A DNA stretch of 64,000 nt, from the IMG/VR virus record IMGVR_UViG_3300045118_000047, positions 6,779 to 70,778 of that record; one strand, given 5' to 3'. Positions 16,359 through 50,986 of the stretch are shown one piece after another. Positions within the stretch are counted from its first letter, which is position 1. The number at the start of each line of letters is the position of its first letter. The translations under genes and the position numbers were made by a program. The notes beneath the pieces are model-generated. The model searched no databases. It was not told where the DNA came from and was given only the letters and a program-made list of their open reading frames with translations. Source of the stretch: a virus.

Positions 16359-16413
16359 GGGCAAAGAACGTAACAATTCTTTTATATTCCGAGCAAGAAT
16401 GGAGGGACTAGGT

Positions 16414-34602: not shown

Positions 34603-35105
34603 AGTTGGACATCGGAAGCGGGGCACATTACAAGACACCGCTGGACGAGTGGACCCATCTCGATTTGAGTAGGGGGGATCATACCGAGATCGTGGCTGAC
34701 TTCGGTAGTATCCCATTGGCAGATGGTTCGGTGGAGCAGATACATATCGGAGACGTGATCGAGCACGTTCCGGGATGGCGGCACGATGAAGTGCTCAGGG
34801 AATGGAATCGCGTGCTTCAGATAGGCGGCATCGTCACGGGTTCGACTCCTAATATAGATCGTATCATGCGGGCGTATGCAAGGGGTGAGCCGGGTATGAC
34901 TCTTCGTGACGCGATGCTTGGTCTGTATGGTTGGGCAGATCATCCGCAGCAGCAGCACTACTATACGTTCACAAAAGACACCTTGAAGGAGTTGATGGCA
35001 AAGCATGGTTTTGACATCAATGATTTCAGCGGCAGTCCCGGAGCGCCTGCCGAGCCTTGGTGGTTGGTGTTTGCCGGAAGAAAGGTTCGCGATGACCGAG
35101 CTTAG
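34599..35105 (+). CDS. class I SAM-dependent methyltransferase
   Basis: KLDIGSG, DVIEHV, EWNRVL..GG..TP. Confidence 0.85.
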   Translation: MKLDIGSGAHYKTPLDEWTHLDLSRGDHTEIVADFGSIPLADGSVEQIHIGDVIEHVPGWRHDEVLREWNRVLQIGGIVTGSTPNIDRIMRAYARGEPGMTLRDAMLGLYGWADHPQQQHYYTFTKDTLKELMAKHGFDINDFSGSPGAPAEPWWLVFAGRKVRDDRA

Positions 35106-37723: not shown

Positions 37724-38419
37724 GTGTACTTCGACATGCAATTGACCATCGTGGTCACAAACGCTTGCGACCGGAGATGTGAGTTGTGTGTGGCTCAATG
37801 GCTGCGACGGGACGAACCCCGTTACATGATGACGCTGGATCAGATCGCTGATTTTGTCGTGTGTACCAAGCAGTCGGATTATCGGTTCCGTTACGTTACC
37901 GTGACAGGCGGAGAGCCGACGTTGTGGCCGTATTTGCAAGATGCCGCCACTATGCTGGGACTGGCTCGGATTGCCGACTGTCTGTTGTTATACTCGAACG
38001 GACACAACCCCAAAGCGTTTACCCCCGAACTGATGAAGTTGTTTTCGGCGGCGAAGCTGTCGGGATACCCGGACGAGCACTATGCCGAAATCTTGGCGCG
38101 GTATCCAGACAAGGTATCGATCTATCCGATCCCAGAACATGTTGTTCCGCCTACGGAGCCGGTTGCGAATTCATTACCGGCGCAGTGTTTGTGTTTTGGA
38201 CCGGCATATTATGACGGCAGGGTGTATCCATGTCTGGGCGGATTTCTGGACGATCATCGGATGGGTCGTAGAACGCCGGGCAAACCGATCTGTCGGGGAT
38301 ACATGGATGATTTCGATCCGGGCAAAGTTGTCATGCAGGAGACTTGTCGGTACTGTGTGACCAACCTGCCGGTGTGGACGGCATCGCCAAAGAAACCAGT
38401 GACCAACAACAGGAGATGA
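37724..38419 (+). CDS. radical SAM protein
   Basis: TNACDRRCELC, TGGEPTL, SNG, C-terminal Cys cluster. Confidence 0.85.
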   Translation: MYFDMQLTIVVTNACDRRCELCVAQWLRRDEPRYMMTLDQIADFVVCTKQSDYRFRYVTVTGGEPTLWPYLQDAATMLGLARIADCLLLYSNGHNPKAFTPELMKLFSAAKLSGYPDEHYAEILARYPDKVSIYPIPEHVVPPTEPVANSLPAQCLCFGPAYYDGRVYPCLGGFLDDHRMGRRTPGKPICRGYMDDFDPGKVVMQETCRYCVTNLPVWTASPKKPVTNNRR

Positions 38420-38420
38420 C

Positions 38421-39131
38421 ATGTACTTTCCGTTCAATATGAACGTCATTGTGACGGGAGAATGCAATCGCAGGTGCGAGCATTGCTGTATCCATGTGAT
38501 TCGAGAGCAGAACAGCGGGCACATGATGACGATGGACCATGTGGAAAAACTAATCAGGGCCACTTTGGACTCACACTACCGATTCAAGACTTTGCTGGTG
38601 ACTGGCGGAGAACCGGTATTGTGGCCTTTATTGACGGACGCATCGAAGCTGCTGAGAGAATCGAATCTTGCCGACAAGATGATGCTGTTCTCCAACGGCG
38701 ACATCGTACCGGCCTTTACTCCGAAGCTCATGGACCTGTATGACATCGTAGCGTTGTCTGTGTATCCTGACTCGGATCACCGGATATTGTCCCAGAAGTA
38801 TCCGGGAAAGATTCAGTATTGCATGGCGCTAGAGCATTTCCCGTTGCCGACCGAAGCCGTGCCGGGGTGTCTTCCAGCTCAGTGCAACTGTTTTGGACCA
38901 GTGGTCTATAACGGACTTGTCTGGGAATGTTTTGCCTATCTGGTTGCCATGCGGCTGGGGAAAACACACACAGGGCGAGAGATTTCCGTCGGGTATATGG
39001 ATGGATTCGATCCCCAACGTATCATTCGTAACGAGTTGTGCCAATGGTGTCTGACGAATCAAAAGGCGATCATCGGTTTGCCACGGTGTCAGCCGGTAAA
39101 CCTGCGGAAAAGGTCCATATCAAAGTCGTGA
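38421..39131 (+). CDS. radical SAM protein (paralog of the upstream gene)
   Basis: TGECNRRCEHC, TGGEPVL, LPAQC.CFGP, GYMD.FDP. Confidence 0.85.
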   Translation: MYFPFNMNVIVTGECNRRCEHCCIHVIREQNSGHMMTMDHVEKLIRATLDSHYRFKTLLVTGGEPVLWPLLTDASKLLRESNLADKMMLFSNGDIVPAFTPKLMDLYDIVALSVYPDSDHRILSQKYPGKIQYCMALEHFPLPTEAVPGCLPAQCNCFGPVVYNGLVWECFAYLVAMRLGKTHTGREISVGYMDGFDPQRIIRNELCQWCLTNQKAIIGLPRCQPVNLRKRSISKS

Positions 39132-41637: not shown

Positions 41638-42118
41638 ATGACAGGATAGCGTCGCAAGAGCTTGTTGGCGTGGCGAGAAGCCTAGTGGCAGACAGTAAAG
41701 AGATCGTTGAGAAAGGAATTGCGGCAGCCATCAGTGCTCTCAACTATCTGCCGGTGACGTATGCTTTTCCCGATCCCGAAGATGGTCGTATTGCCAAGGC
41801 GAAGATGGTCGTATTGCCAAGGCGAAGGTGCAGGAAGCTGTGGACATATTGGATGCTGTGTTGTCCAGCCTTCCGACTCCTGTAATTTACAACGTCTATG
41901 GGCTTGGCAGTGGTGTTTTATCGTTCGACGATGCGTCTAAGCTCGTTGCCGCGATGAGATCAAAGGGGATTCGTCAAACTGGTGTTGATCGGTCGGGAGC
42001 CATTCGTCGAGAGCTTCAGGGTCAACCTACTTTCGATAAGCTGGCTGGGCCGATGTATGATGGTCCCAAGAAGGTGCGTTACGAAACTTGGGAGCTGAAC
42101 GAGCGTCTTTCTGTGTAG
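41634..42118 (+). pseudogene. tagged hypothetical gene split by a 23-bp tandem duplication
   Basis: Removing one CGAAGATGGTCGTATTGCCAAGG unit fuses the 41634 and 41828 frames. Confidence 0.7.
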
Positions 42119-42126
42119 GAGCCGTG

Positions 42127-42945
42127 ATGCCGGATCAAGACACAGCATCGAAAATAATCCCTGTTCCCGGCATGGACCGCTCCAAGCTGTTCCGAGTTGC
42201 ACGGGAGATGCTTGGCATGGCCCGCGAGATGATCGGGGCCGTGGTAAAGGAGAAGTGGGAGCCGCCAGAAGGAAAACGAAAGTCGTGGCGGAAAAAGCTC
42301 CCGGACGGAACGTATGAGTATCGAGATACGCCGCCGGAAGACCAGCAGCCCAAGAAACCAGATGAGCAGGGCAAAAAGGTGCAGTACAAGATGCACCTTC
42401 GTCTGGATAAGCCGAAGCTGAAGGAAACCCTTTCTCACGGTCACTTTTCCATCATCTCTGCTGGGCGCAACCCGAATGATCCGCATGAAGCCGCCATGTC
42501 TCCCGATGCCGAGTTCTTTCATCATAGACATGAGAATTTGCGCGGGGAGTTGGAGAGACGCGGGCTGCGATATACCGAAGTGGTCGGGCATTATGGCGGC
42601 AAGGAGTCGAGCTTTTTGGTGTTCCATGATGACACTGAGCTAACGCCAAAAACTCAGAAGTCGGTCATCGTTCATCACCGGGACAAGGACGAGTCCGACC
42701 GTAACCGCAAGGTCATCGAAGAGATTGGTCACAAGTTCAATCAGGACAGCGTGCTCCACGGGGCAGAAGGACGGAACGAGATTGTCTTCACAACAGGCAA
42801 GAAAGTCGGCAAAACCTGTGGTGGAAAGGGCTGGAAGGAAGTGCCGGACGCCAAGGACTTCTACACCGATATTAAGCTCGAAGGGAAGCAGCACACGAAG
42901 TTCAATCTGGACATCCATGAGTGTTTCGAGAAGGGGCTACTATGA
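42127..42945 (+). CDS. DUF3293-like protein with tag
   Basis: FSIISAGRNP, GHYGGKESSFLV, GHKFNQDSVL; RVAREMLGMAREMI. Confidence 0.55.
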   Translation: MPDQDTASKIIPVPGMDRSKLFRVAREMLGMAREMIGAVVKEKWEPPEGKRKSWRKKLPDGTYEYRDTPPEDQQPKKPDEQGKKVQYKMHLRLDKPKLKETLSHGHFSIISAGRNPNDPHEAAMSPDAEFFHHRHENLRGELERRGLRYTEVVGHYGGKESSFLVFHDDTELTPKTQKSVIVHHRDKDESDRNRKVIEEIGHKFNQDSVLHGAEGRNEIVFTTGKKVGKTCGGKGWKEVPDAKDFYTDIKLEGKQHTKFNLDIHECFEKGLL

Positions 42946-43271: not shown

Positions 43272-43630
43272 GAGATACATCATGCGGATCAGAAATATGT
43301 TGTCTGTCCTAGCTGACTCGGTATCGGGTAGCAAAGTGTATTGGATGAAGGGTAGGGATGGCCATCTGTCTGTTTGTGCCAGCGTATCTGGTAAAACAGA
43401 GCAGGCTGAAGGGGAAGGGTCCAAACATCTTGCCGCCAGAGCAGAACGACTGGTTGTATCTGGGGCAAGGAAAGCGCGTCTTGCGTCGATAGAGACTGGC
43501 GTTTTGATGGGTGGGGATGGGAACGGAAGGATTGTGGCTACTGCTATTGCCGACATCCCGCCAATGCCGGGCATTGAGTCTCGGTTGGTGGGTGCCGGAA
43601 TAGCACAGCTCCGATAGGCTGAAATTTTTC

Positions 43631-43660
43631 TGGAAAACATTTCAGTCACAGGAGTATAGT
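43631..43660 (+). promoter_or_regulatory. sigma70-like promoter TGGAAA-N18-TATAGT
   Basis: Resembles the 47488 promoter; precedes structured RNA A. Confidence 0.45.
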
Positions 43661-43686
43661 ATCTTTGTTGCGTGAAGCACGCTTCA

Positions 43687-43889
43687 GAGAAGGGATACTT
43701 CAGCTAACGGTTCTAAGGTAGCTCAGGTCCAAGCCATCCGAATGGATGCTATGTTCGGAATGGACGACACAGCGAGTAGCGACAGAGTGGCATCTGTCTG
43801 AGAACGGGGAGACCCGGCGCTACGTTTCAGCGGCCATAGCCAGCGCAAGCTGGTTTGGTGCGGAAAGCCATTCAAGAAAGGCCCTTTTC
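43687..43889 (+). ncRNA. unassigned structured RNA A with a 23S H69-H71-like segment
   Basis: Closing helix GAGAAGGG/CCCTTTTC, several hairpins, TAACGGTTCTAAGGTAGC at 43705-43722. Confidence 0.55.
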
Positions 43890-43929
43890 GATTATCGGTG
43901 CCAACGCACTTTCATCTAGGGATGGGAAT

Positions 43930-44451
43930 ATGAGTCAAACAAGACAGCAGCGGAAGCAGCAGCAAAAGCGCGTCAATCGCCAGAAGAAGATCAGAAAGCT
44001 CCACAACATCCAGCGCAACTTGGCCGAGCAAAGATTTCGTCTGGATGTCGAGCTGAATGGAGAGTGGCGGATTGGGGTCAAGCATTGGCGTCACATCAGC
44101 TTGATCGAGAAGCACCGTGACGAAACGGAGCGGCTGCGCAGGGCTGGTCAGGAGATTGTTGCCGGTCGGGTGGTGGACCTGATGACCGGAAAGATTATCT
44201 TGAAGATCGAAGCATCGAAGCCGAAGGGCGCGGCTCCTGATAAGATCGCGGATGGCGTTCGGGCGGCGGATTTCAGCGCGAACATCGGAGAAGGCGAAGG
44301 TCAGCAAGTTGGAAGCAAGGGACCTGAGCCGGTAAACTCGGAAGAACAGCAGAGCCAAGGACCTGCCGGGATCGTGGAGTCGGAGCAGAAGCCGGAAGGT
44401 CCGAAGGGGCCAGTGCAAAAGTTCTTCCGTATTCTGGGTGGTCGTCGGTAA
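43930..44451 (+). CDS. basic protein with Arg/Gln/Lys-rich N-terminus, putative RNA-binding
   Basis: MSQTRQQRKQQQKRVNRQKKIRK; the only convincing ORF inside the RNA island. Confidence 0.6.
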   Translation: MSQTRQQRKQQQKRVNRQKKIRKLHNIQRNLAEQRFRLDVELNGEWRIGVKHWRHISLIEKHRDETERLRRAGQEIVAGRVVDLMTGKIILKIEASKPKGAAPDKIADGVRAADFSANIGEGEGQQVGSKGPEPVNSEEQQSQGPAGIVESEQKPEGPKGPVQKFFRILGGRR

Positions 44452-44453
44452 TG
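44427..44453 (+). promoter_or_regulatory. CCGTAT-N15-GTAATG promoter
   Basis: One mismatch to the motif; upstream of RNA B. Confidence 0.6.
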
Positions 44454-44557
44454 TGGTTTTGACCGGGCGATGTGAAAAGCAAGCCGAGTCATTCCCTTAG
44501 CGGGGAAGAAGACAGGGGAAGCGTAGCGTCGGAGAGTGGGTTAGCGCCCATCCCGGT

Positions 44558-44569
44558 TGTTCTTTGAAA
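44558..44569 (+). promoter_or_regulatory. boxA-like antitermination element
   Basis: TGTTCTTTGAAA directly before RNA B. Confidence 0.65.
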
Positions 44570-44570
44570 T

Positions 44571-44854
44571 GAAAAGTCTGTAAAGTAGCTCGTCCATCCG
44601 ACTGACGACGTGTCGGACAGCGGGTGAAAATCAGGAACGGAAAGAAAGCCGTTCACGGTAGGCCGGAGTGGTAACACGCTTCGGCGGACATCCTGCCGTC
44701 AATAGTAGGATGCTGCTGCTCCCGTCCGAAAGGATCAGGAGAGACACGGGGCTGACATCGGGTAACACCTAGATGGCACAGGCTCGTAGGCCAAGACGGA
44801 ATACCGAAAGGTATGCCTGCCCGATGAAAGAAAGGACAGACCGACAGACTTTTC
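44571..44854 (+). ncRNA. unassigned structured RNA B
   Basis: 11-bp closing helix GAAAAGTCTGT/ACAGACTTTTC; GAAA and GTAACA-capped hairpins; no + strand ORF. Confidence 0.7.
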
Positions 44855-44855
44855 T

Positions 44856-44882
44856 CCATATCGCCGGAGACATCTGGTAATG
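44856..44882 (+). promoter_or_regulatory. CCATAT-N15-GTAATG promoter
   Basis: Exact motif upstream of the GAC-mimic RNA. Confidence 0.75.
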
Positions 44883-44888
44883 TGGGTG

Positions 44889-44900
44889 TGTTCTTTGACA
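44889..44900 (+). promoter_or_regulatory. boxA-like element
   Basis: TGTTCTTTGACA. Confidence 0.7.
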
Positions 44901-45305
44901 GAATAGGCAGGGGAATGTTGGCTTAGAAGCAGCCAGATAGAAATATCAGTTTTCTCTTGCTGGCGTGATTGCCATAGAATACAAGGGGGAACTCATCTAA
45001 GGAGTGAATCGCTGAGCATTGCTCCGTGAGTGTCATGGGGAAACCTGACTACTCGGAGTAACGCAATAGGGATTGGGCAGGCCGGACGGAACCGGATGTC
45101 TGGACATACGTTGGGTGAAAACCCAACTAGCACCCTTCTCGCAAGGAAGGAGAGGACGCCAGAGTGTACTGCCCTATTGTGCGGCAAAGGAGGTTGCGGC
45201 TCCCGTGTGGGTGAATAGTCTTTCGTGTGGTAGAAGCATAACCCGCAAGGCCATACTCAATCGCATGGTGGATTCTTTGGCGTAATAGCACACCTTTGCT
45301 TGTTC
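44901..45305 (+). ncRNA. structured RNA containing a split 23S rRNA GTPase-associated-centre (H43/H44, uL11-binding) domain
   Basis: 13-bp closing helix; blocks ATGTTGGCTTAGAAGCAGCCA, CATCTAAGGAGTG and GCGTAATAGCACAC in rRNA order. Confidence 0.8.
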
Positions 45306-45308
45306 TGT

Positions 45309-45320
45309 TGTTCTTTGACA
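45309..45320 (+). promoter_or_regulatory. boxA-like element
   Basis: TGTTCTTTGACA. Confidence 0.7.
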
Positions 45321-45325
45321 TTTTG

Positions 45326-45792
45326 ACTGGCAGCGGTACGGCACTAGGAACGTACTTGCGCATTAAAGTCCCAGTGCGCGACAATAGCCACGGTAGGGTT
45401 AGAAGCCCGATGTGGTCGCCGTTGAAAACAACGGCAGCGTGAGTCTGAGACCGTAAAGACGGTGAGTTCAACGCGAACCTGACGAGCTTCGTCTGCCTTT
45501 CCAGACTACGGTCATATACATGCCCCCGCAAAGGAGCTAACGGGGTCCCGTAAAGGACGCCGGGACGATGGCCGCAAGTGGGAAGGAGAAACAGACGAGT
45601 GGCGGGGAGAGTGGCGACAAGGCATTCCTTCAGGCTGGGCGCATTAAAAATTCCGTGGGCACGGATATATGCCTTGGGCAAAAATTGTTTCTGCTGTTTG
45701 ATCCCGAAACGTAGAAGCAGTCAGTAGTGGCGAGCGAACACTGTGGAGAATCGGGGTAGGCAAGTGTGTCGGTGAGAATCCGGCCTGCCAGT
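45326..45792 (+). ncRNA. unassigned structured RNA C with a 23S H13-like module
   Basis: Closing helix ACTGGCAG/CTGCCAGT; CAGT-C-AGTAGTGGCGAGCGAA-C-ACTG at 45718-45743. Confidence 0.7.
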
Positions 45793-45874
45793 TTTCGTCC
45801 AGATGATGTGACTTGCGGCGCACAAGGGTCCTGTGGTAGAGTGTTCTGGACCATTGCACCGTAAACTTTTTGAT

Positions 45875-45951
45875 CGCGGGAGGGAAGGCCGTGGTGGTCT
45901 CGTGGGGTTCATAACCCTATAAGTCGGGTTCGAGTCCCGGTCCCGCTACCA
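45875..45951 (+). tRNA. tRNA-Met(CAT), initiator-like with atypical D arm
   Basis: Acceptor CGCGGGA/TCCCGCT-A-CCA, anticodon arm TGGGG-TTCATAA-CCCTA, T loop TTCGAGT. Confidence 0.85.
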
Positions 45952-46081
45952 ATTTGAAGATGCGTTCGCCTGTCGCACGGGCCTGTGATGGGTCGTCAAA
46001 CAAGGCATGTCGAGCGTGAGACATGTCATCAGTGAATGGGGAAGGCGCATCTCGCAGAAGACGTGGAGCAGGAAATCGATT

Positions 46082-46462
46082 ACCGGCAAACCTGCTCTTC
46101 GTAATGCGGCAAGGCGGTTCTAAGCCCGCCTGTGGGCAAGCGTACTGTTGGGCCGGAAGGCAGGCATGTCGTCGGAACTCAGCAGATGGTAGAATAGGCC
46201 GCTAATAGCTCACGAAGGTTCGGTCAACGCCACGACGAAGGCGCTAGTCATAAGGTTGGCGGTAGCCGGGCTGCTTGGATGGTGGAGTCGGCGGTGGAAA
46301 CATCGCCCCCAAAAGAACCGCTTGCGGGAACCCTGAGCCGCAGTGATCTGTGGCTGGCTCTGAAGGGCTGCGGGAATGAACCTACCGCTACTACGCGCAG
46401 CGAAAGCTGCTAGGGACTTGTCGGCCCAAATGAACCAACCGGCAAGGGTCGGGTTTGCTGGT
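46082..46462 (+). ncRNA. unassigned structured RNA D
   Basis: 13-bp closing helix ACCGGCAAACCTG/CGGGTTTGCTGGT; nested TTGGGCCG/CGGCCCAA and GGCGGTAG/CTACCGCT helices; GNRA hairpins. Confidence 0.6.
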
Positions 46463-46509
46463 CTGGCTGTGAAATCTTCGCCCGGATGGAGCCAGACCAG
46501 CAACAATTT

Positions 46510-46536
46510 CCATATTGATGACAGACTGTGGTAATG
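46510..46536 (+). promoter_or_regulatory. CCATAT-N15-GTAATG promoter
   Basis: Exact motif upstream of the tmRNA. Confidence 0.75.
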
Positions 46537-46620
46537 TGGTCGCATGAACGGATAGATGGGCATCGGTATTCCGTTCATTGAAGCGGGTTGCCTAGCCGCC
46601 GAAAGGTAGGAGCGATGTCT

Positions 46621-46632
46621 TGTTCTTTGACA
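46621..46632 (+). promoter_or_regulatory. boxA-like element
   Basis: TGTTCTTTGACA, one base before the tmRNA 5' end. Confidence 0.7.
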
Positions 46633-46633
46633 T

Positions 46634-47465
46634 GGGCGCGATACGGTTTCGACGGGTGAAGTTGAAATCGAGCGACACGCCGAGTAATGTCTGGTTGGAC
46701 TCGTTAATCTATCCCAGACGACAACACAAACGCCAAGAGAACTCTTGGTAAGGTGATTCGCGGTGTCTTCGGTGCTGCTGATGAAGCGGTGCCGATGCTC
46801 GCGGCTGCGTAAGCAGCCCACCGTCACGGTGTAAGACTACGTGAACCGCCGTGGCTCAAAGCACGTGGTTGACAGCTTGGAAAGACAGCGATACCGGAGC
46901 TGGTCATTCCGGGGAAGGATGGACCAAAGTTGCCGGTTGACAACCGGATAGACCAAGCCCGTGGTCGAGAATATCGGGCGAAGCGTGTGTATGTTCGGCG
47001 TAGACTCATTCGGACGGGAGTTCAATCCAAAGGTTGCCTTGCTTGGCGACAAGCAAGGAAAAGAGTGCTCAAACGGTGAACGCTAAATCCGTAAGGATAT
47101 GCCAACGCCGTCGAGTGGGCTGGAAACAGCGAAGCTCGCTAGAGACTTATAGGCACCTTCAACCAAAGCTGGTTATGGTGTACTAGGATGGAAGAATCTT
47201 TCTCGAATCTGAGTTTGGCTTCGCGCATGGCGGCGGTGTATTTCCCGTTCCGTGGAGTAACCTTGTGGTAAACATGGGCGAGAAGGAACGCCGAGTCAGG
47301 AAGATCGTTCCTTCGCCATCGATGATGCCGGTCAGATAACCGAGATCGAATTTTTTCATAAATGCACTCCTTCTGGATGTAGGTTATACCTACAGCATGT
47401 CCAGAAGAAGGAATAGTCCAGACCATTACGAAAGTAAAGGATAATCTGTCTCCCCGCGTCCACCA
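46634..47465 (+). ncRNA. ssrA: tmRNA interrupted by a group I intron; exons 46634-47026 and 47449-47465
   Basis: 5' GGGCGCGATACGGTTTCGAC; acceptor GGGCGCG/CGCGTCC-ACCA with G3:U; tag ORF 46732-46812 AKRTLGKVIRGVFGAADEAVPMLAAA*; spliced T arm GGGAG-TTCAATT-CTCCC. Confidence 0.92.
47027..47448 (+). mobile_element. group I intron (422 nt) in the tmRNA T loop; no endonuclease ORF
   Basis: P1 CAAT/GTTG with U:G at the splice site; R-like TAGAGACTTA and S-like AAGGAATAGTCC; terminal G. Confidence 0.88.
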
Positions 47466-47487
47466 ATTTCAAGGTCACGAAAAATAG

Positions 47488-47517
47488 TTGCAAACAATTT
47501 CGTGGCGTGAGTATAGT
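47488..47517 (+). promoter_or_regulatory. sigma70-like promoter TTGCAA-N18-TATAGT
   Basis: Near-consensus hexamers upstream of RNA E and a tRNA. Confidence 0.55.
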
Positions 47518-47563
47518 GTAGTGAAAGTGAACGAAGTCAGGCTCACTTCAGTTCTGGGTTACT

Positions 47564-47829
47564 TCATAAAGCAACCAGAAGTCTCCGGCGGCGACAAGGA
47601 TCGCCGTTAGTAGGAGAATGACGGCCTGCAAAGACAGGATGGAGTTCAGGGAAGACTGGATGGCAGCATGGGAAGACATGCAAATGGCAGCTCGGAAAGA
47701 CGGCTTTCCCGGAGCGCATATCGGAGCTTGATGTAGTTCTGTGAGTGTTGAAGTATGGCACGCTTCAGTTTGGGGTTACTTCTGCCTTTCATAGAAATAC
47801 CCCAGACGGTCATCGGTGTCGGCTTTTGA
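47564..47829 (+). ncRNA. unassigned structured RNA E with four tandem NNAAGA-loop hairpins
   Basis: CCTG-CAAAGA-CAGG, TTCAG-GGAAGA-CTGGA, GCATG-GGAAGA-CATGC, GCTCG-GAAAGA-CGGC with ATGG(C)A linkers. Confidence 0.55.
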
Positions 47830-47830
47830 T

Positions 47831-47907
47831 TGCGGGGTGGAGCAGCCCGGTAGCTCGGCTGGCTCATAACCAGCAGGTCGTTGGTTCAAATCCAACTCCC
47901 GCAACCA
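47831..47907 (+). tRNA. tRNA-Met(CAT) with fMet-like body
   Basis: TGCGGGGTGGAGCAGCCCGGTAGCTCG...CTCATAA...GGTTCAAATCC...CGCAACCA. Confidence 0.92.
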
Positions 47908-47910
47908 CAG

Positions 47911-47947
47911 AAGGCCGGACGCCGAAAGGTGCCCGGCTTTTTGTTTT
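47911..47947 (+). terminator. intrinsic terminator
   Basis: GCCGG..GCC-GAAA-GGT..CCGGC hairpin plus T-tract. Confidence 0.75.
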
Positions 47948-47961
47948 GAGAAAGGAGTCGT

Positions 47962-48609
47962 ATGAAGCCAGTTTTGAAGCCGAACATTATGGTCTCACAG
48001 GACGAAGTAGACTTGGTAATCGGAGAGCTTGACCGGGTACTCAGGCTGGGCCTGCCGGGAGACGTGGTAGAGTTCGGGTGTAATGTGGGGAATACGTCGG
48101 TGTTCTTACAGGATGCGTTGCAGCGGAATGGAAGCCAGAAAAAGCTGGTGTGCATTGACTCGTTTCAGGGGTTCCCGGAGACGGAGTCGATTGACGAAGA
48201 CTGCTTCAAGAAGGGTGGTCTGGCAGTACAGCAGGCAGAGCTGCTGGGTCATTTCGACGAGTTTCAGCTTCCGCATCCCGTGGTCGTACAGTCGTGGATC
48301 GAAGAGCTTCGAGCGAAGGATTTGCCGGATGAGATTTGCTTCGCGTTTGTAGACTGTGACATCTACAAACCGGCAAAGTGGGCATTCGGATTGGCGTGGA
48401 TCAGGATGCCGGTAGGCGGGTCGGTTGTGTTTCACGACATCTGGGCGAAGGGAATCCAGCGGGCGATCTGGGAAGGTCGTCAAGGGATGTCGCGGGAAGA
48501 GATTGCATGTTGTCACAGGTCGTACATTGTCAGGAAGGTGGATTCGGTGCCCGTGGTGGGCAAAATTGGCGGCGATAATGCCGCACTTCAGGAAGGGGTG
48601 AGACAGTGA
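47962..48609 (+). CDS. TylF/MycF-family O-methyltransferase
   Basis: PGDVVEFGC..G, DSFQGFP, FAFVDCDIY, VVFHD. Confidence 0.85.
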   Translation: MKPVLKPNIMVSQDEVDLVIGELDRVLRLGLPGDVVEFGCNVGNTSVFLQDALQRNGSQKKLVCIDSFQGFPETESIDEDCFKKGGLAVQQAELLGHFDEFQLPHPVVVQSWIEELRAKDLPDEICFAFVDCDIYKPAKWAFGLAWIRMPVGGSVVFHDIWAKGIQRAIWEGRQGMSREEIACCHRSYIVRKVDSVPVVGKIGGDNAALQEGVRQ

Positions 48610-50363
48610 GTACGTTCAAGACGGTAGCACGGCAGAAGTCGGCGGCTGCATTGCAGCCGAGTCATGCTCCGAACGCATCGGTCAACCGGGCGGGCGGAGT
48701 GGCATTCGAGATTAGCGATCCATCACTGAAGCTCCTGACCATGACAGGCGGGGCTTTCTTTGCGGAGCCGAAGTTCTACAACGGCGACCAGTGTGTGCCG
48801 AAGCGTGGAACGGGCGGCAAGTTTGAAAAGCTGGCCGAGCGTCTGGAGATCGTGGGTGACAAGCTGAAGGGCGTTGTGTCTTGCGATGAGCTGGACGAGA
48901 CGGCTCGCGAAGTTGTGGCGACGGCTCTGGATGTGGCACGGGGCAATAACCCGGAAGACATTCTGGCGATTGCTAATTGGCTGCGTAACGAGATGAACAT
49001 CCGGCTGACGCCGCAGGTGTTGCTGGTGCTCGCTTCGCGGATGGACAACACGAAGTCTCTGGTGCGCAAGTACGCTCCGTGCATCGTGAAGCGCCCGGAC
49101 GAAGTGAAGAGCTGCCTGTTGATTCACCGGTTCTTCTTTGGGTTGAAGGACCTAAAGAACGGTCTGGCCAACGGTCTAGCCGACGCGCTGGGGAAGTTCG
49201 GGGAGCGGGGACTGATGAAGTACGACGATCCGGGATTCCCGACGTGGAAGGATGTGCTGTGCTGGCTGCCGCGTAAGGCGGGCTGGCCGCTGAAGGCGGA
49301 AGTGGCGCAGTATTTCATCACCGGGAAGATTGGTGATCCGGCGAAGGTTCCGGTCATCGCGGCCCGCAAGGAGCTGGTGAAGTGCAAGGCGTTTGACGCC
49401 GAAGCTCGCAAGCTGGCCCGTGCGTCAATGGTGAACTGGGAAGTTCTGCTTTCGCAGTTTGGCAACGACAAGCAGGCGGTCTGGGAGTTCTTGGTTCAGG
49501 AAGACTTGCTGGGTTACATGGCTATGCTGCGTAACCTTCGCAACATTCTGGAAGCCAAGGCTGGCCGGACGGTCATTCAGAAGGTGTCGGACAAGCTGTC
49601 CAACCACGATGAAGTCGTGAAGTCGAAGCAGCTCCCGTTCCGGTTCCTGTCGGCGCTGAAGGCGCTGGAGGGGATGCAGGGCGAGTTCGATCAGGCCGAC
49701 GTGTCTGAGCTGATGGCGGCTGTGGAGCTGGCTTCCAACGAAGCCTGTGCCAACATCCCGGTTCTGCCGGGGACAACAGTCATCTTCGCGGATGTGTCGC
49801 AGTCGATGCGCCGTAACAGGGTGTCGGACAAGTCAGAAGTCAACTGCGCGGATGCGGCAACGGTGCTGTGTGGTATCGTGGCCAAGGTCGCTGAGCGCCC
49901 GTATGTCGTGGCGTTCGGTTCGGATGTGGCTCCGGTGTTGTTCTCGAAGAACGACACGGTGCTGCGGATCGCCAAGCGGACGCTGGATGCGGACACTAAG
50001 GGGTGCTCAACCAACGGGCACAAGTGCGTGGAGTGGCTGATCCAGAAGAAGCTGGTGCCGGATCGTGTGGTCTTCCTGTCTGACATGCAGATGTGGAATG
50101 ACAACGATTCCAACGACGATCAGATTTGTCTTTCCGACGTGTGGGACAAGTACCTGAAGTCGGCGGCTGGCGCGAAGAATACGTGGGCGCACTGCGTCCA
50201 TGTCAACGGCTACGGCGACAACGTCGTCGAAGGGGACCGGATAAACATGGTTGCCGGGTTCTCGGAGAAGGTCGTGACGATGATGCTTCAGACGGAAGGC
50301 GTCATTGGCGGAAAGGCTCTGCCGACAGTGGAGCAGGTCCGTGAGAAGTGGACCGTGAAGTAA
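48606..50363 (+). CDS. TROVE-domain (Ro60-like) RNA-binding protein with vWA domain
   Basis: N.AGG.AF, RPDE, MAMLRNLRN, SKQLPFRFLSA, vWA DVSQSM and FLSDMQ, GFSEKV. Confidence 0.9.
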   Translation: MSTFKTVARQKSAAALQPSHAPNASVNRAGGVAFEISDPSLKLLTMTGGAFFAEPKFYNGDQCVPKRGTGGKFEKLAERLEIVGDKLKGVVSCDELDETAREVVATALDVARGNNPEDILAIANWLRNEMNIRLTPQVLLVLASRMDNTKSLVRKYAPCIVKRPDEVKSCLLIHRFFFGLKDLKNGLANGLADALGKFGERGLMKYDDPGFPTWKDVLCWLPRKAGWPLKAEVAQYFITGKIGDPAKVPVIAARKELVKCKAFDAEARKLARASMVNWEVLLSQFGNDKQAVWEFLVQEDLLGYMAMLRNLRNILEAKAGRTVIQKVSDKLSNHDEVVKSKQLPFRFLSALKALEGMQGEFDQADVSELMAAVELASNEACANIPVLPGTTVIFADVSQSMRRNRVSDKSEVNCADAATVLCGIVAKVAERPYVVAFGSDVAPVLFSKNDTVLRIAKRTLDADTKGCSTNGHKCVEWLIQKKLVPDRVVFLSDMQMWNDNDSNDDQICLSDVWDKYLKSAAGAKNTWAHCVHVNGYGDNVVEGDRINMVAGFSEKVVTMMLQTEGVIGGKALPTVEQVREKWTVK

Positions 50364-50392: not shown

Positions 50393-50428
50393 AAAGGCTG
50401 GTTCCGAAAGGGGCCAGCCTTTTTCTTT
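50393..50428 (+). terminator. intrinsic terminator
   Basis: AGGCTGGTTCC-GAAA-GGGGCCAGCCT plus T-tract. Confidence 0.85.
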
Positions 50429-50432
50429 GTCG

Positions 50433-50451
50433 TAACAATTCTTTTATATTC
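50433..50451 (+). promoter_or_regulatory. putative late promoter TAACAATTCTTTTATATTC (about 10 copies in the window)
   Basis: Identical copies at 16371, 24793 and 61743; variants near 24408, 29360, 40841, 53316, 54021 and 60494. Confidence 0.75.
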
Positions 50452-50509
50452 TGACCATTAGTGATGGGTCATACAGGCTTTCACAGGCTTCAGACCAGAA
50501 GGAGTCGTT

Positions 50510-50749
50510 ATGGCATACAGGAAAAATCCAACGGATAAGAGCCAAAGCGAGATGGAAGCTGCGGCGAATGGTGAAGCGGGCATTACCGTTCAGGTTGATG
50601 GCGGTCAGAAGGTTGTTACCAAGGCAGTCGGGTCCGCGCCATATCGGACACAGCATGATTCTGCCGAAGGCGGACAGAGAGCCAATGCCGGTGTCGTGAT
50701 TCCATGCAGCGATCAGCCGAACACGTTCCCAACACCCGGAAAGGCGTAA
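50510..50749 (+). CDS. hypothetical protein
   Basis: RBS AGGAG after the late promoter. Confidence 0.6.
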   Translation: MAYRKNPTDKSQSEMEAAANGEAGITVQVDGGQKVVTKAVGSAPYRTQHDSAEGGQRANAGVVIPCSDQPNTFPTPGKA

Positions 50750-50752
50750 CAC

Positions 50753-50986
50753 GTGAATGACAAGCTGGTAGCAAATGAGCTTGTTTCTGTGGCTAGGGAT
50801 TTAGCGGCGATGGATGCCGATGTAGCGGCAGACCCGGATCGGGTGGAAGAGCTGGCTGCTAAGTTCCTTTCCCGGCTGGGTCCGGTAAAGTCAAGACAGC
50901 TTCGGACGTATGGGATTGAGCTGAAACCAAGTGATACGGTCGAATCCCTTGCGAAAGCATGGGCGACTGTGTTGTTGGCGATGTAG
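50753..50986 (+). CDS. hypothetical protein with tag
   Basis: KLVANELVSVARDLAAMD. Confidence 0.6.
   Translation: MNDKLVANELVSVARDLAAMDADVAADPDRVEELAAKFLSRLGPVKSRQLRTYGIELKPSDTVESLAKAWATVLLAM

What the first reader, a model, noticed from the sequence alone, without database searches (positions are those of the whole stretch)
43631..47947. An rRNA-operon-like island of at least five unassigned large structured RNAs, plus tRNAs and tmRNA, next to Ro60/TROVE
SEEN: about 4.3 kb with only one convincing ORF in an otherwise gene-dense genome. It divides into units closed by long terminal helices (43687-43889, 44571-44854, 44901-45305, 45326-45792, 46082-46462, and more weakly 47564-47829), rich in GNRA, T-loop and loop-E motifs. 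The units are interleaved with promoters, boxA elements, two tRNAs and a tmRNA. Three units carry 23S-like modules. TROVE/Ro60 lies two genes downstream and a CCA-adding enzyme is encoded in the same window. KNOWN: phages carry giant ornate RNAs (GOLLD, ROOL) near tRNA clusters, and Ro60 binds Y RNAs and misfolded structured RNAs. INFERENCE: a coordinated RNA-based system for translation control or counter-defence; the RNAs may assemble into one particle.
Basis: partly seen in the sequence, partly recalled or inferred. Interest (0 to 1): 0.85.

Follow-up and report, generated by a model that had tools for sequence, protein, structure and literature searches.

The report
Phage non-coding RNA operon beside Ro60
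A lake-water phage carries a 4.3-kb cluster of RNA genes next to its Ro60 gene, mixing known RNAs with several unclassified structured RNAs, one of which copies a functional site of the ribosome's large RNA.

Summary
The island is real. Window 43,631-47,947 holds one conserved protein gene (43930-44451) and otherwise RNA genes, all on the + strand.

Known parts:
- two tRNA(CAU) genes, one initiator-like;
- a twister-P5 ribozyme;
- two sigma-70-like promoters and a terminator;
- four copies of GTTCTTTGA, the same word as the boxA in a real bacterial 16S-23S spacer.

In 53 related loci this word lies 44 times on the Ro60 strand and 3 times on the other.

Three RNAs (43677-43901, 47530-47745, 47755-47825) share a covarying "clamp" stem. 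In relatives this stem is the base of tRNA-like RNAs that give sub-threshold YrlA (Y RNA) matches, so they are the likely Ro60 partners.

Unit 3 (44905-45301) carries a 21/21 copy of 23S helix 43, a helix-44-like loop and a closing helix, retained in relatives. Units 4 and 5 are conserved and consistent with structure. Unit 2 is an orphan.

No RNA data exist. The single-particle idea has no support, and only one of the three "23S-like modules" holds up.

The parts
43631..43660 (+). Sigma-70-like promoter P1 (TGGAAA, 18 nt spacer, TATAGT)
   Evidence: Consensus scan. The number found in the region is no higher than in shuffles, so this is a prediction only.
43677..43901 (+). Unit 1: clamp-type RNA that ends 29 nt before the basic-protein start codon. 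Outer helix 43677-80 with 43898-901; CUUCAG 43682-87; inner helix 43688-94 with 43882-89. Either a Y-RNA-like RNA or the gene's leader.
   Evidence: Homologues L016, L018 and L030. In RNAalifold, 7 of 31 pairs keep pairing through changes on both sides. My covariance model R1 scores it only 10.7 bits, E 1.1. No YrlA match at E<=10.
43930..44451 (+). Conserved basic protein of 173 aa with a Lys/Arg/Gln-rich N-terminal helix; function unknown
   Evidence: 26 unnamed homologues (alignment). Found in 13 of 101 phage loci, 11 of them distinct and all linked to TROVE. No Pfam or PHROG match. AlphaFold2 block-mean pLDDT is 83-96 for residues 1-100. No Foldseek PDB match at E<=1e-3.
44464..44553 (+). 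Conserved spacer between the ORF and the first boxA
   Evidence: blastn and nhmmer matches to L003 and L004
44559..44567 (+). boxA-like element 1 (GTTCTTTGA)
44571..44855 (+). Unit 2: orphan structured RNA candidate
   Evidence: Minimum free energy -131.6 kcal/mol, z -6.3, 0 of 100 shuffles fold as well. No homologue found.
44890..44898 (+). boxA-like element 2
44905..45301 (+). Unit 3: RNA with a mimic of the 23S GTPase-associated centre. Closing helix 44905-13 with 45293-301; helix-43 copy 44915-35; helix-44-like GCGTAATAGC 45280-89; about 340 nt lie between the two hairpins.
   Evidence: 21/21 to E. coli 23S 1057-1077, E 7e-5. Homologues L003 and L004. A helix-43-like hairpin is also in L048. 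Side-by-side comparison with real 23S.
45310..45318 (+). boxA-like element 3
45326..45792 (+). Unit 4: unclassified structured RNA; closing helix 45326-33 with 45785-92
   Evidence: Homologue L004:3682-4158. 23 of 76 pairs change on both sides, against 1-4 in slid controls; only two sequences. No Rfam match, RNase P included.
45875..45951 (+). tRNA(CAU) with initiator-like features and an aberrant D-arm
   Evidence: ARAGORN. Rfam tRNA 27.6 bits, below the cut-off of 29. The features were read.
46053..46129 (+). Twister-P5 self-cleaving ribozyme
   Evidence: 38.0 bits against a cut-off of 37.6. A syntenic copy in L004 scores 48.6 bits.
46130..46545 (+). Unit 5: unclassified structured RNA
   Evidence: Homologues L002/L011:5888-6227; the 3' part also in L004, L008 and L052. 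22 of 70 pairs change on both sides, against 0-4 in slid controls; only two sequences.
46622..46630 (+). boxA-like element 4; it ends 3 nt before the tmRNA 5' end
46634..47026 (+). tmRNA exon 1, with tag frame 46732-46812 (AKRTLGKVIRGVFGAADEAVPMLAAA*)
47027..47448 (+). 422-nt insert in the tmRNA T-loop, probably a group I intron (U before the 5' junction, G as last base)
   Evidence: Absent from 6 of 6 aligned relatives. Present in DNA contigs of 3 of 4 laid runs. The fold keeps the T stem across the insert, z -6.4. Rfam Intron_gpI gives no match.
47186..47362 (-). Short ORF with a LAGLIDADG-like motif; a possible remnant of a homing endonuclease gene
   Evidence: Motif read. PHROG 5046 at E 0.0057 only. 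No Pfam match. Weak.
47449..47465 (+). tmRNA exon 2 (last T-loop base, 3' strand of the T stem, 3' strand of the acceptor stem, ACCA)
   Evidence: read
47488..47517 (+). Promoter P2 (TTGCAA, 18 nt spacer, TATAGT), conserved in relatives
   Evidence: Most positions of the -10 region are invariant in the 8-sequence alignment.
47530..47745 (+). Unit 6, domain 1: clamp-type RNA enclosing tandem hairpins with G(R)AAGA hexaloops
   Evidence: 48 pairs, 95.8% of cells paired. 11 pairs change on both sides, against 0-2 in slid controls; 0 of 500 shuffles reach this.
47755..47825 (+). Unit 6, domain 2: minimal clamp hairpin (Y-RNA-like basal stem)
   Evidence: Model R1 64.9 bits. Family covariation. The minimum-energy fold agrees.
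47831..47907 (+). tRNA(CAU), annotated Met
   Evidence: 62 bits; ARAGORN. blastn finds this region in 23 of the 25 related loci that give any island match.
47907..47944 (+). Intrinsic terminator hairpin followed by a U run
   Evidence: -25.7 kcal/mol, z -6.0
47962..48609 (+). TylF-like SAM methyltransferase
   Evidence: Pfam PF05711, E 1.6e-12
48606..50363 (+). Ro60 homologue (TROVE plus vWA domains)
   Evidence: Pfam PF05731, E 5.3e-21; PF25045

Best explanation
The stretch is an operon-like cluster of phage non-coding RNA genes. It is conserved, in varying composition, upstream of the Ro60 gene in a clade of lake and sediment phages.

SHOWN
- The RNA genes, one conserved protein gene, their common strand, and their conservation.
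- The boxA word in front of units 2, 3 and 4 and of the tmRNA.
- Covarying helices in the clamp family.
- Retention of the helix-43 copy in relatives.

INFERRED MECHANISM
- Host RNA polymerase starts at P1 and P2.
- The boxA elements recruit NusB/NusE-type antitermination factors, as they do in rRNA operons. Transcription of about 4 kb of untranslated, highly folded RNA then escapes Rho.
- The precursor is cut into separate RNAs by RNase P and RNase Z at the tRNAs and the tmRNA, by twister self-cleavage, and by self-splicing of the tmRNA insert.

INFERRED PRODUCTS
(a) Translation RNAs: the tmRNA, an initiator-like tRNA and a tRNA(CAU).
(b) Three clamp RNAs whose basal stem corresponds to that of YrlA-type Y RNAs. 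These are the likely ligands of the adjacent Ro60.
(c) Unit 3, which displays a copy of the ribosome's GTPase-associated centre and probably titrates or presents something that recognises that site.
(d) Units 4, 5 and 2, function unknown.

The overall role I commit to is phage control of translation and RNA quality control during infection.
For: Island and gene content.

Synteny. tmRNA plus tRNA-Met lie upstream of TROVE in L002-L005 and L008. blastn finds the tRNA-Met region in 23 of the 25 loci that give any island match. The basic protein is encoded in 11 distinct TROVE loci.

boxA.
- 4 of the 5 exact copies in the window lie in the island, on the sense strand.
- A real 16S-23S spacer (Poribacteria MAG, L226) carries the same TTGTTCTTTGACA 52 nt before 23S. 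Acidovorax and E. coli carry close variants.
- The motif matches the gamma-proteobacterial consensus GYTCTTTAANA at 10 of 11 positions (PMC5725501, passages read).
- In 53 related loci (410,559 nt) it occurs 44 times on the TROVE strand and 3 times on the other. 13 of the 44 are followed within 50 nt by the clamp motif, 7 of 44 by a tmRNA 5' end, 2 of 44 by unit 3; 22 of 44 were not classified by my patterns.

Clamp family.
- 21 sequences, 13 pairs, 95.6% of cells paired against 38-48% in slid controls.
- 79 cells change on both sides against 8-20 in slid controls; 0 of 500 shuffles reach this.
- Covariance model R1 gives 69 matches at E<=0.01 in 61 sources. This count includes the 21 training sequences and some duplicate loci.

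Link to Y RNA.
- 6 of 9 sub-threshold YrlA matches (27.5-39.2 bits, cut-off 69) are nested in R1 matches whose apical part carries a T-arm and a D-arm.
- The model aligns the phage GGGAUACUU with YrlA gCgaAUGCuu.
- Y RNAs next to Ro60 are established in bacteria and phages (PMC4201824 and PMC12135203, passages read).

Unit 6 domain 1 covariation.

Unit 3: 21/21 to 23S helix 43, kept in L003, L004 and L048.

tmRNA insert. Its site and junction rules match the 883 intron-bearing tmRNA genes described in PMC11915505 (passages read).

Terminator.
Against: - No transcript data: none of the 11 runs that hold the DNA is on record as RNA. Transcription, operon structure, processing sites and splicing are therefore all inferred.
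- In the window itself no YrlA match appears at E<=10.
- Only one of the three clamp RNAs is recognised by my own model. Unit 1 scores 10.7 bits and unit 6 domain 1 scores 11.8 bits, neither significant.
- The window copies lack a tRNA-like module.
- Rfam's group I intron model does not match the tmRNA insert.
- Binding of Nus factors to the boxA word is untested. The promoter scan finds no more sites than chance.
- Covariation for units 4 and 5 rests on two sequences each, and the structure was derived from those same sequences.
- Unit 2 has no homologue.
- For unit 3, RNAalifold prefers an imperfect long helix between the helix-43-like and helix-44-like segments in L003 and L004 over two separate hairpins.
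- By my reading, the helix-43 stems of L003 and L004 have two non-standard pairs where E. coli has U-A and U-U.
- About 340 nt separate the two hairpins of unit 3, unlike the contiguous rRNA domain.
Confidence: 0.6

Rival explanations
1. The RNAs are parts of one rRNA-like particle, a phage pseudo-ribosome or a multi-RNA assembly of the GOLLD/ROOL kind.
For: - The layout resembles an rRNA operon, with boxA elements and tRNA punctuation.
- One unit copies a 23S site.
- A conserved basic protein is encoded inside the island.
Against: - No LSU or SSU model match.
- The rRNA-like matches are short and not collinear, and only one is significant.
- No GOLLD or ROOL match.
- The unit set differs between close relatives: unit 2 and the tRNA at 45875 are found only in the window, and units 3 to 5 are limited to L002, L003 and L004. 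That pattern argues against an obligate multi-part machine.
- Nothing tested bears on co-assembly.
Confidence: 0.07
2. The GTTCTTTGA word is not a Nus-factor boxA. It could be a processing signal, a binding site for a phage protein, or part of a phage-specific promoter that happens to resemble boxA.
For: - In front of the tmRNA it ends only 3-5 nt before the mature 5' end, so it could mark a cleavage site.
- No binding data exist.
- The host is unknown, so the host's own boxA cannot be compared.
Against: - It is identical to a genuine rrn spacer boxA over 13 nt.
- The strand bias is strict, 44 to 3.
- It always lies in leaders or spacers of untranslated RNAs, where Rho would otherwise act. That role of boxA is established for rRNA operons (PMC4807359, abstract seen in the listing; PMC5725501, passages).
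- By my reading, no -10 element lies at promoter spacing downstream of the TTGACA inside the word.
Confidence: 0.2
3. Much of the island is evolutionary debris: decayed mobile introns, homing endonuclease remnants and captured fragments of host rRNA and tRNA genes, with no function of their own. Only the tRNAs, the tmRNA and one Y-like RNA are functional.
For: - An insert with a possible endonuclease remnant lies in the tmRNA gene.
- An intein with a LAGLIDADG endonuclease lies elsewhere in the window.
- Unit 2 and the aberrant tRNA are specific to the window.
- Unit 3 in the window has a fresh rRNA-identical helix-43 copy next to a degenerate older one.
- The 17/18 rRNA-like match in unit 4 is not conserved in L004.
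Against: - Units 3, 4 and 5 are conserved in phages whose Ro60 is only 68-70% identical, and their changes keep the pairing.
- The helix-43 loop is retained in four lineages.
- A boxA stands in front of units 2, 3 and 4.
- The sequence is nearly unchanged in lake metagenome runs dated 2018 and 2025.
Confidence: 0.12
4. Unit 1 is not a free RNA. It is the autoregulatory 5' leader of the basic-protein gene. The basic protein, rather than Ro60, is what binds the clamp motif.
For: - Unit 1 ends 29 nt before the start codon in the window, and the same arrangement is seen in L016 and L018.
- The protein has a long basic N-terminal helix.
- The protein co-occurs with the RNA islands.
Against: - Many loci have clamp RNAs next to TROVE, but the protein was found in only 11 distinct loci. 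Many of the loci are short, so this is weak evidence.
- The clamp is tied to YrlA-like modules and to TROVE across 69 matches.
- No binding data exist either way.
Confidence: 0.25
5. The region encodes proteins that are hidden by a non-standard genetic code.
For: Some large phages recode stop codons (recalled, not checked here).
Against: - The flanking genes are open under table 11.
- Under table 4 or TAG=Q the longest + strand frame in 44452-47830 is 128 aa.
- Compensatory changes keep RNA helices rather than reading frames.
Confidence: 0.02

Closest known systems
Bacterial and phage Ro60 loci with YrlA-type Y RNAs (Rfam RF02553; Chen et al. 2014, PMC4201824; Thermus phage phiLo Yrl1 and Yrl2, PMC12135203)
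   Same: - Structured RNAs are encoded directly upstream of the Ro60 gene on the same strand.
- They have a basal stem with an internal loop.
- In relatives the stem carries a T-arm and D-arm module that the YrlA model aligns over its full length.
   Different: - The window's three copies get no YrlA match.
- In place of the tRNA-like module they carry a simple hairpin, an array of G(R)AAGA hairpins, or a collapsed T/D remnant.
- At 71-225 nt, two of the three exceed the 80-130 nt given for characterised Y RNAs.
- In related loci the clamp RNAs are often preceded by boxA (13 of 44 boxA copies); in the window they follow promoters P1 and P2.
- Supplementary lists of phage YrlA RNAs in PMC4201824 could not be opened, so overlap with that set is unknown.
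rRNA-operon antitermination through boxA with NusB/NusE/NusA/NusG/SuhB (PMC4807359, PMC5725501), and boxA in front of CRISPR arrays (recalled; only later papers were seen in the listing)
   Same: The same sequence word, placed in leaders and spacers of long untranslated, structured transcripts.
   Different: - It is found here in a phage array of tmRNA, Y-like RNAs and unclassified RNAs.
- It recurs in front of four successive RNAs.
- No boxB or boxC was identified, and function is untested.
tmRNA genes interrupted by a group I intron in the T-loop (PMC11915505)
   Same: - The insert lies after the sixth T-loop base, which I read as that paper's main site, loop position 7.
- U precedes the 5' junction and G is the last base of the insert.
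- Removing the insert restores the T-loop and the acceptor stem.
- A possible LAGLIDADG remnant lies inside.
   Different: - It is encoded by a phage.
- Rfam's group I model does not recognise it.
- The remnant ORF is on the opposite strand.
- The dedicated tmRNA_intron model is in a supplement that I could not open.
The 23S rRNA GTPase-associated centre (helices 42-44, the uL11 site), and rRNA mimicry in ribosomal-protein mRNA leaders (recalled)
   Same: - A helix-43 hairpin identical over 21 nt.
- A helix-44-type GUAAUA hexaloop.
- A closing helix in the position of helix 42.
   Different: - About 340 nt are inserted between the two hairpins.
- It sits in a free-standing phage RNA, not in rRNA or an mRNA leader.
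- No protein partner is known. No uL11 gene was found in the 70.8 kb held, which is about 43% of the genome.
Large ornate RNAs of phages and bacteria (GOLLD, ROOL; bioRxiv 10.1101/2024.12.08.627333, seen in a search listing only)
   Same: RNAs of several hundred nucleotides with many helices, encoded near tRNA genes in phage genomes.
   Different: No covariance-model match at E<=10. No evidence of multimer formation.

Membership tests
tmRNA (RF00023) | Covariance-model score at or above the curated cut-off | tested here: met
   58.3 bits against 47. Relatives without the insert score 107-117 bits.
tmRNA (RF00023) | tRNA-like domain (acceptor stem with a G-U third pair, T arm, ACCA end) and a tag reading frame | tested here: met
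   The 5' GGGCGCG (46634-40) pairs with CGCGTCC (47455-61), followed by ACCA. The T stem is GGGAG with CTCCC. All of this holds only once 47027-47448 is removed (read). The tag is AKRTLGKVIRGVFGAADEAVPMLAAA*. ARAGORN does not call the gene.
Intron-form tmRNA (group I intron in the T-loop) | Insert within the T-loop, with U at -1 and G as the last base of the insert | tested here: met
   Exon 1 ends TTCAAT and the insert ends CTG. The restored loop TTCAATT fits the relatives' loops TTCGACT, TTCAAAT, TTCGATT and TTCAACT. The rule is as stated in PMC11915505.
Intron-form tmRNA (group I intron in the T-loop) | A recognisable group I catalytic core | tested here: not met
   RF00028 gives no match at E<=10. 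Stretches resembling the R and S core elements were seen by eye only, compared against recalled consensus. The tmRNA_intron model was not available.
Intron-form tmRNA (group I intron in the T-loop) | Self-splicing | not testable with these tools
   No run on record as RNA.
Twister-P5 ribozyme (RF02684) | Covariance-model score at or above the cut-off, with the conserved core | tested here: met
   38.0 bits against 37.6, a marginal pass. The syntenic copy in L004 scores 48.6 bits. Cleavage was not tested.
YrlA / bacterial Y RNA (RF02553) | Covariance-model match | tested here: not met
   No match at E<=10 in the window. Relatives that carry the same clamp motif reach 27.5-39.2 bits against a cut-off of 69.
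YrlA / bacterial Y RNA (RF02553) | Encoded next to a Ro60/TROVE gene | tested here: met
   47755-47825 lies 781 nt upstream of the TROVE start, on the same strand. The clamp model R1 gives 69 matches in 61 sources, most of them fetched through their TROVE gene.
YrlA / bacterial Y RNA (RF02553) | tRNA-like domain with T-arm and D-arm | tested here: not met
   Absent from the window's copies. It is present in relatives L208, L202, L034, L219, L187 and L206. Unit 1 keeps only adjacent T-loop-like and D-loop-like words (reading).
YrlA / bacterial Y RNA (RF02553) | Binding to Ro60 | not testable with these tools
rrn-type boxA antitermination element | Sequence match to genuine rRNA-operon boxA | tested here: met
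   TTGTTCTTTGACA is identical to the boxA in the 16S-23S spacer of L226. It matches GYTCTTTAANA at 10 of 11 positions.
rrn-type boxA antitermination element | Sense-strand position in leaders and spacers of untranslated RNA genes | tested here: met
   4 of 4 island copies; 44 sense against 3 antisense in 53 loci.
rrn-type boxA antitermination element | NusB/NusE binding and resistance to Rho | not testable with these tools
Bacterial LSU rRNA (RF02541) | Covariance-model match | tested here: not met
   No match at E<=10. The control genomes did match.
Mimic of the 23S GTPase-associated centre (helices 42-44) | Helix-43 hairpin sequence | tested here: met
   21/21, E 7e-5. The loop and its flanks are kept with 1 change of 15 in each of L003, L004 and L048.
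Mimic of the 23S GTPase-associated centre (helices 42-44) | Helix-44 hexaloop hairpin and a closing helix | tested here: inconclusive
   GCGTAATAGC is present in the window and in L003; L004 has GCGTAACAGC. The closing helix differs in sequence but stays complementary in 3 of 3 (my reading). RNAalifold proposes a competing long helix.
Mimic of the 23S GTPase-associated centre (helices 42-44) | Compact contiguous 58-nt domain that binds uL11 | tested here: not met
   About 340 nt lie between the two hairpins. Binding is not testable here.
GOLLD, ROOL and other large-RNA families; RNase P RNA | Covariance-model match | tested here: not met
   None at E<=10.
Bacterial initiator tRNA | Mismatch at 1:72, G2-C71, C3-G70, A73, and three G-C pairs at the base of the anticodon stem (criteria recalled) | tested here: inconclusive
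   All of these can be read in 45875-45951. Against this, the D-arm is aberrant, the Rfam score of 27.6 is below the cut-off of 29, and the minimum-energy fold is not a cloverleaf.

The most novel reading that the evidence does not exclude
Unit 3 is a trans-acting decoy of the ribosome's GTPase-associated centre. The phage makes a free RNA that displays helices 43 and 44, and this RNA soaks up something that recognises that rRNA site. Candidates are uL11, a stringent-response or translational GTPase factor, or an rRNA-directed toxin of the kind that ADP-ribosylates helix 44 (PMC8661411; title and start of the abstract seen in a search listing). Alternatively, unit 3 presents the site to the neighbouring Ro60/Y-RNA particle. 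Either way it would be the first natural rRNA-domain decoy RNA described in a virus. It would sit within a boxA-driven operon of Ro60-linked RNAs whose apical modules have diversified away from tRNA mimicry.
Probability: 0.25. Interest if true: 0.85.

Novelty: new variant of a known kind. Interest (0 to 1): 0.66.

Why it matters
Ro60 and its Y RNAs are conserved from bacteria to humans, yet what they act on in microbes and phages is poorly defined. This locus offers three openings.

- A family of 69 clamp-stem RNAs shows one likely Ro60-binding stem carrying interchangeable apical modules: a tRNA-like domain, hairpin arrays, or simple loops. Ro60 pull-downs can test this directly.
- rRNA-type boxA antitermination appears to be used by phages to transcribe long arrays of non-coding RNA. 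If so, the known reach of Nus-factor regulation extends beyond rRNA operons.
- An RNA that copies the uL11 / thiostrepton / elongation-factor site of 23S rRNA, conserved in four phage lineages beside Ro60, suggests rRNA mimicry as a phage strategy.

Three further RNAs of 290-470 nt (units 2, 4 and 5) belong to no described family.

Tried and rejected
- RNA evidence. No RNA holder is listed among the 11 runs. Laying four DNA runs gave near-identical contigs, no joints and no useful variation.
- Near-identical phage records: none in the INPHARED collection beyond the tRNA.
- Unit 3 motif scan of IMG/VR: it found only the two contigs already known.
- Clamp pattern scan of bacterial genomes: 120+ rows, the number expected by chance for about 15 specified bases. 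Filtering by tail motif and by nhmmer left almost none.
- Unit 4 as RNase P RNA: rejected.
- Units as a degenerate LSU rRNA: rejected.
- Alternative genetic codes: rejected.
- GRAAGAC enrichment: it is genome-wide on the coding strand and not specific to the island.
- Basic protein. No Pfam, PHROG, Foldseek PDB or Atlas lead. The VIA-align wide search was not accepted.
- LAGLIDADG remnant: no Pfam support.
- A phage uL11 gene: none in the 70.8 kb held.
- Thermodynamic z-score scan: noisy and not decisive.
- First attempts to fetch 23S loci from draft genomes failed before succeeded.
- Literature searches turned up no paper on boxA-punctuated phage RNA arrays or on a phage mimic of the GTPase-associated centre. 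The library is partial, and supplements are closed.

Full report
WHERE IT LIES

The window is bases 6779-70778 of a 70,778-base IMG/VR virus record judged about 43% complete. Nearly all long ORFs are on the + strand. Eleven lake-water metagenome runs hold the stretch. Contigs from runs dated 2018 and 2025 differ from it by 0-2 letters over pieces of up to 2.9 kb. No near-identical deposited phage exists in the collection searched.

THE OBSERVATION

Between 43,631 and 47,947 the only conserved ORF is 43930-44451. It has 26 unnamed homologues, with a conserved core of about 115 residues.

Reading the region under table 4 or with TAG=Q opens no + strand frame longer than 128 aa. Three minus-strand and two short + strand ORFs have no Pfam match.

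Rfam at curated cut-offs finds a tmRNA (46642-47029), a tRNA (47831-47904) and a twister-P5 ribozyme (46053-46129). ARAGORN adds a tRNA-Met call at 45875-45951.

Downstream lie a TylF-like methyltransferase and a TROVE+vWA Ro60 homologue. A CCA-adding enzyme is at 12426-14048.

RELATIVES

The Ro60 protein brought in 7 IMG/VR loci and 48 metagenome loci.

- tmRNA plus tRNA-Met lie upstream of TROVE in L002-L005 and L008.
- blastn finds the tRNA-Met region in 23 of the 25 loci that give any island match.
- nhmmer finds unit 1 in L016, L018, L030 and L031; unit 3 in L003 and L004; unit 4 in L004; unit 5 in L002/L011, with its 3' part also in L004, L008 and L052; and unit 6 in eleven loci. It finds nothing for unit 2 or for the tmRNA insert.
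- Profile searches and the extra viral loci added no further homologues of units 2 to 5.

THE tmRNA GENE IS SPLIT

Aligned with six intact relatives, the window's gene carries 422 extra bases inside the T-loop.

- Exon 1 ends ...TTCAAT (47026) and the insert ends ...CTG (47448).
- Exon 2 (47449-47465) supplies the last loop base, the 3' strand of the T stem, the 3' strand of the acceptor stem and ACCA.
- Removing the insert restores a T-loop like those of the relatives, and an acceptor stem with a G-U third pair.
- The tag frame is intact and ends in LAAA.
- The fold keeps the T stem across the insert, z -6.4.
- DNA contigs of three of the four laid runs span the insert or a junction, so it is not an assembly artefact.

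This fits the published intron form of tmRNA. PMC11915505 describes 883 sequences, mostly at T-loop position 7, with U at -1 and a terminal G, and a few with LAGLIDADG genes (passages read).

Against full membership, Rfam's group I model gives no match, and I saw R- and S-like core words only by eye. A minus-strand ORF (47362 to 47186) has a LAGLIDADG-like motif, but its only support is one weak PHROG hit, with no Pfam match.

boxA

Exact GTTCTTTGA occurs five times in 64 kb. Four of these are in the island on the + strand, directly in front of unit 2, unit 3, unit 4 and the tmRNA.

I fetched real rRNA operons for comparison:
- a Poribacteria MAG carries TTGTTCTTTGACA 52 nt before its 23S gene;
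- Acidovorax carries TGTTCTTTAAAAA;
- E. coli carries TGCTCTTTAACAA in the leader and TGCTCTTTAAAAA in the spacer.

The published gamma-proteobacterial consensus is GYTCTTTAANA (PMC5725501).

In 53 related loci (410,559 nt) the word occurs 44 times on the TROVE strand and 3 times on the other.
- 13 of the 44 are followed within 50 nt by the clamp motif.
- 7 of 44 are followed by a tmRNA 5' end.
- 2 of 44 are followed by unit 3.
- 22 of 44 were not classified by my patterns.
The set includes near-duplicate loci.

By my reading, no -10 element lies at promoter spacing after the embedded TTGACA. Reading the word as an rrn-type antitermination element is therefore well founded on sequence and position, but it is untested biochemically.

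THE CLAMP FAMILY AND ITS LINK TO Y RNA

Units 1 and 6 share the words CUUCAG-N4-GGG(A/U)UACUUC and, further 3', CG-UUAUYGG.

In 21 short examples these words frame two helices (alignment A14).
- Of 13 pairs, 95.6% of cells are paired, against 38-48% when the partners are slid.
- 79 cells change on both sides, against 8-20 in slid controls.
- The covariation score is 0.80, against 0.10-0.17. No shuffle of 500 reaches the observed values, except on one measure (pairs with a change on both sides, 96 of 500).

A covariance model built from them (R1) gives 69 matches at E<=0.01 in 61 sources. This count includes the 21 training sequences and some duplicate loci.

In jumbo-phage relatives the same stem encloses a T-arm and a D-arm. 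Rfam's YrlA model hits 9 places there at 27.5-39.2 bits, against a cut-off of 69.
- 6 of the 9 are nested in R1 matches.
- The other 3 of 9 overlap tRNA genes.
- In L208 the YrlA model aligns over its full length, and the phage GGGAUACUU falls on YrlA gCgaAUGCuu.

I conclude that the clamp is the basal stem of a divergent phage branch of YrlA-type Y RNAs. Such RNAs are known to sit beside Ro60 genes (PMC4201824 and PMC12135203, passages read).

In the window:
- R1 recognises only 47755-47825, at 64.9 bits.
- Unit 6 domain 1 and unit 1 score 11.8 and 10.7 bits, neither significant. They are assigned to the family by alignment.
- No YrlA match appears at E<=10.

Unit 6 domain 1 has its own support. 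Of 48 pairs, 95.8% of cells are paired and 11 pairs change on both sides, against 0-2 in slid controls; 0 of 500 shuffles reach this. The structure includes tandem hairpins with G(R)AAGA hexaloops.

The unit 1 stretch that matches 23S 1917-1934 at 17/18 (E about 1) reads better as adjacent T-loop-like and D-loop-like words left over from such a module. This is an inference.

UNIT 3

When the whole window is compared with the E. coli rrnH operon, the three best matches all lie in the island on the + strand. The best is 44915-44935, which equals 23S 1057-1077 (helix 43) at 21/21, E 7e-5.

- At the other end of the unit lies GCGTAATAGC (45280-89), the helix-44 hexaloop hairpin word.
- 44905-13 can pair with 45293-301.
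- L003 and L004 have the same three elements. Their closing helices differ in sequence but remain complementary: GTGATGGG with CCCATCAC, and GTGATGG with CCATCAC.
- A helix-43-like hairpin also follows the TROVE terminator in L048.
- Allowing up to 2 substitutions, the 15-mer occurs 5 times in 1.70 Mb of phage loci. Three of these are the cases just named. It occurs 0 times in 1.73 Mb of unrelated bacterial loci.

Caveats:
- About 340 nt separate the two hairpins.
- RNAalifold prefers a long imperfect helix between the two ends in L003 and L004.
- The helix-43 stems of L003 and L004 have two non-standard pairs.
- The window keeps a degenerate second copy of the 5' segment at about 44964-44996. 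This suggests that the rRNA-identical copy is a recent replacement.
- No uL11 gene is present in the sequence held.

UNITS 4, 5 AND 2

- Unit 4 against L004: 23 of 76 predicted pairs change on both sides, against 1-4 in slid controls.
- Unit 5 against L002: 22 of 70, against 0-4 in slid controls.
- Both comparisons use two sequences, and the structures were derived from those same sequences, so this is consistency rather than proof.
- Unit 2 folds well (z -6.3) but stands alone.
- None of the three matches any Rfam family.

OTHER PARTS

- The twister match is marginal here, at 38.0 bits against 37.6. It is supported by a syntenic 48.6-bit copy in L004.
- The tRNA at 45875-45951 shows initiator-type identity elements by reading, but it has an aberrant D-arm and scores below the cut-off.
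- P2 is conserved in relatives.
- A strong terminator follows tRNA-Met.

HOW IT MOST LIKELY WORKS

The steps below are inferred, except where a result is stated.

1. There are two or more transcription units: P1 through to the tmRNA, and P2 through to the terminator.
2. boxA-bound Nus factors protect the untranslated transcripts from Rho.
3. RNase P and RNase Z, the twister ribozyme and intron splicing release the individual RNAs.
4. The tmRNA and the tRNAs serve translation.
5. The clamp RNAs load the phage Ro60.
6. Unit 3 displays a copy of the GTPase-associated centre, as a decoy or as bait.

The one-particle idea has no support.

NOVELTY

The kind of thing is known: phage tRNA/tmRNA clusters, Y RNAs beside Ro60, boxA antitermination, and intron-bearing tmRNA genes.

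As far as my searches reach, these points are new:
- the boxA-punctuated phage RNA array;
- the clamp family with interchangeable apical modules;
- the mimic of the GTPase-associated centre;
- units 2, 4 and 5.

The library is partial and supplements are closed.

Noticed in passing
window 20626-22740 (+): This 704-aa protein carries Hint and LAGLIDADG_3 homing-endonuclease domains. It is an intein-containing gene, so homing elements are or were active in this genome.
   Followed up: no
window 12426-14048 (+): A CCA-adding enzyme or poly(A) polymerase family protein with head, RNA-binding, HD and tRNA_NucTran2_2 domains. It fits the tRNA, tmRNA and Y-RNA theme.
   Followed up: partly
L198:880-1069 and L206:7675-7879: Sub-threshold but full-model-length matches to RNase P RNA models lie inside the large tRNA arrays of jumbo-phage relatives: archaeal model 31.7 bits, bacterial type A model 28.2 bits. 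These may be reduced phage RNase P-like RNAs.
   Followed up: no
L206, L219, L198, L202 (IMG/VR jumbo-phage contigs of 24-253 kb): Arrays of dozens of tRNA genes are interspersed with clamp/YrlA-like RNAs. The clamp family is therefore not confined to the spot next to TROVE.
   Followed up: partly
window 44964-44996: A degenerate second copy of the 5' segment of unit 3 starts with the GTGAT that L003 and L004 use for their closing helix. It lies downstream of the rRNA-identical helix-43 copy, which suggests replacement by a fresh copy.
   Followed up: partly
L016:6976, L018:6980, L041:275, L045:804: A further conserved boxA-led element (GACA-AT/GT-CAG-ATG/GTG-AGA...GGGGA) lies between tRNA-Met and TROVE in a sub-clade. 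It is not present in the window.
   Followed up: no
L004:4356-6828: The closest syntenic relative has about 2.5 kb of extra sequence, with short ORFs, between the twister/unit 5 start and the unit 5 3' part.
   Followed up: no
window 16345-19218; 37724-39131; 33772-36009; 42088-42945: A ferritin-like domain in a 957-aa protein, two adjacent radical-SAM proteins, two family-2 glycosyltransferases, and a borderline SAM-lyase match (27.6 bits against 28).
   Followed up: no
window 50393-50986: After TROVE come a terminator-like hairpin and two small ORFs (50510-50749 and 50753-50986). This stretch gave strong fold z-scores in the 15-shuffle scan.
   Followed up: no
window 43600-47950 in runs X3-X6: The same phage sequence recurs in lake-water metagenome runs dated 2018 and 2025, with 0-2 differences per contig piece.
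   Followed up: partly
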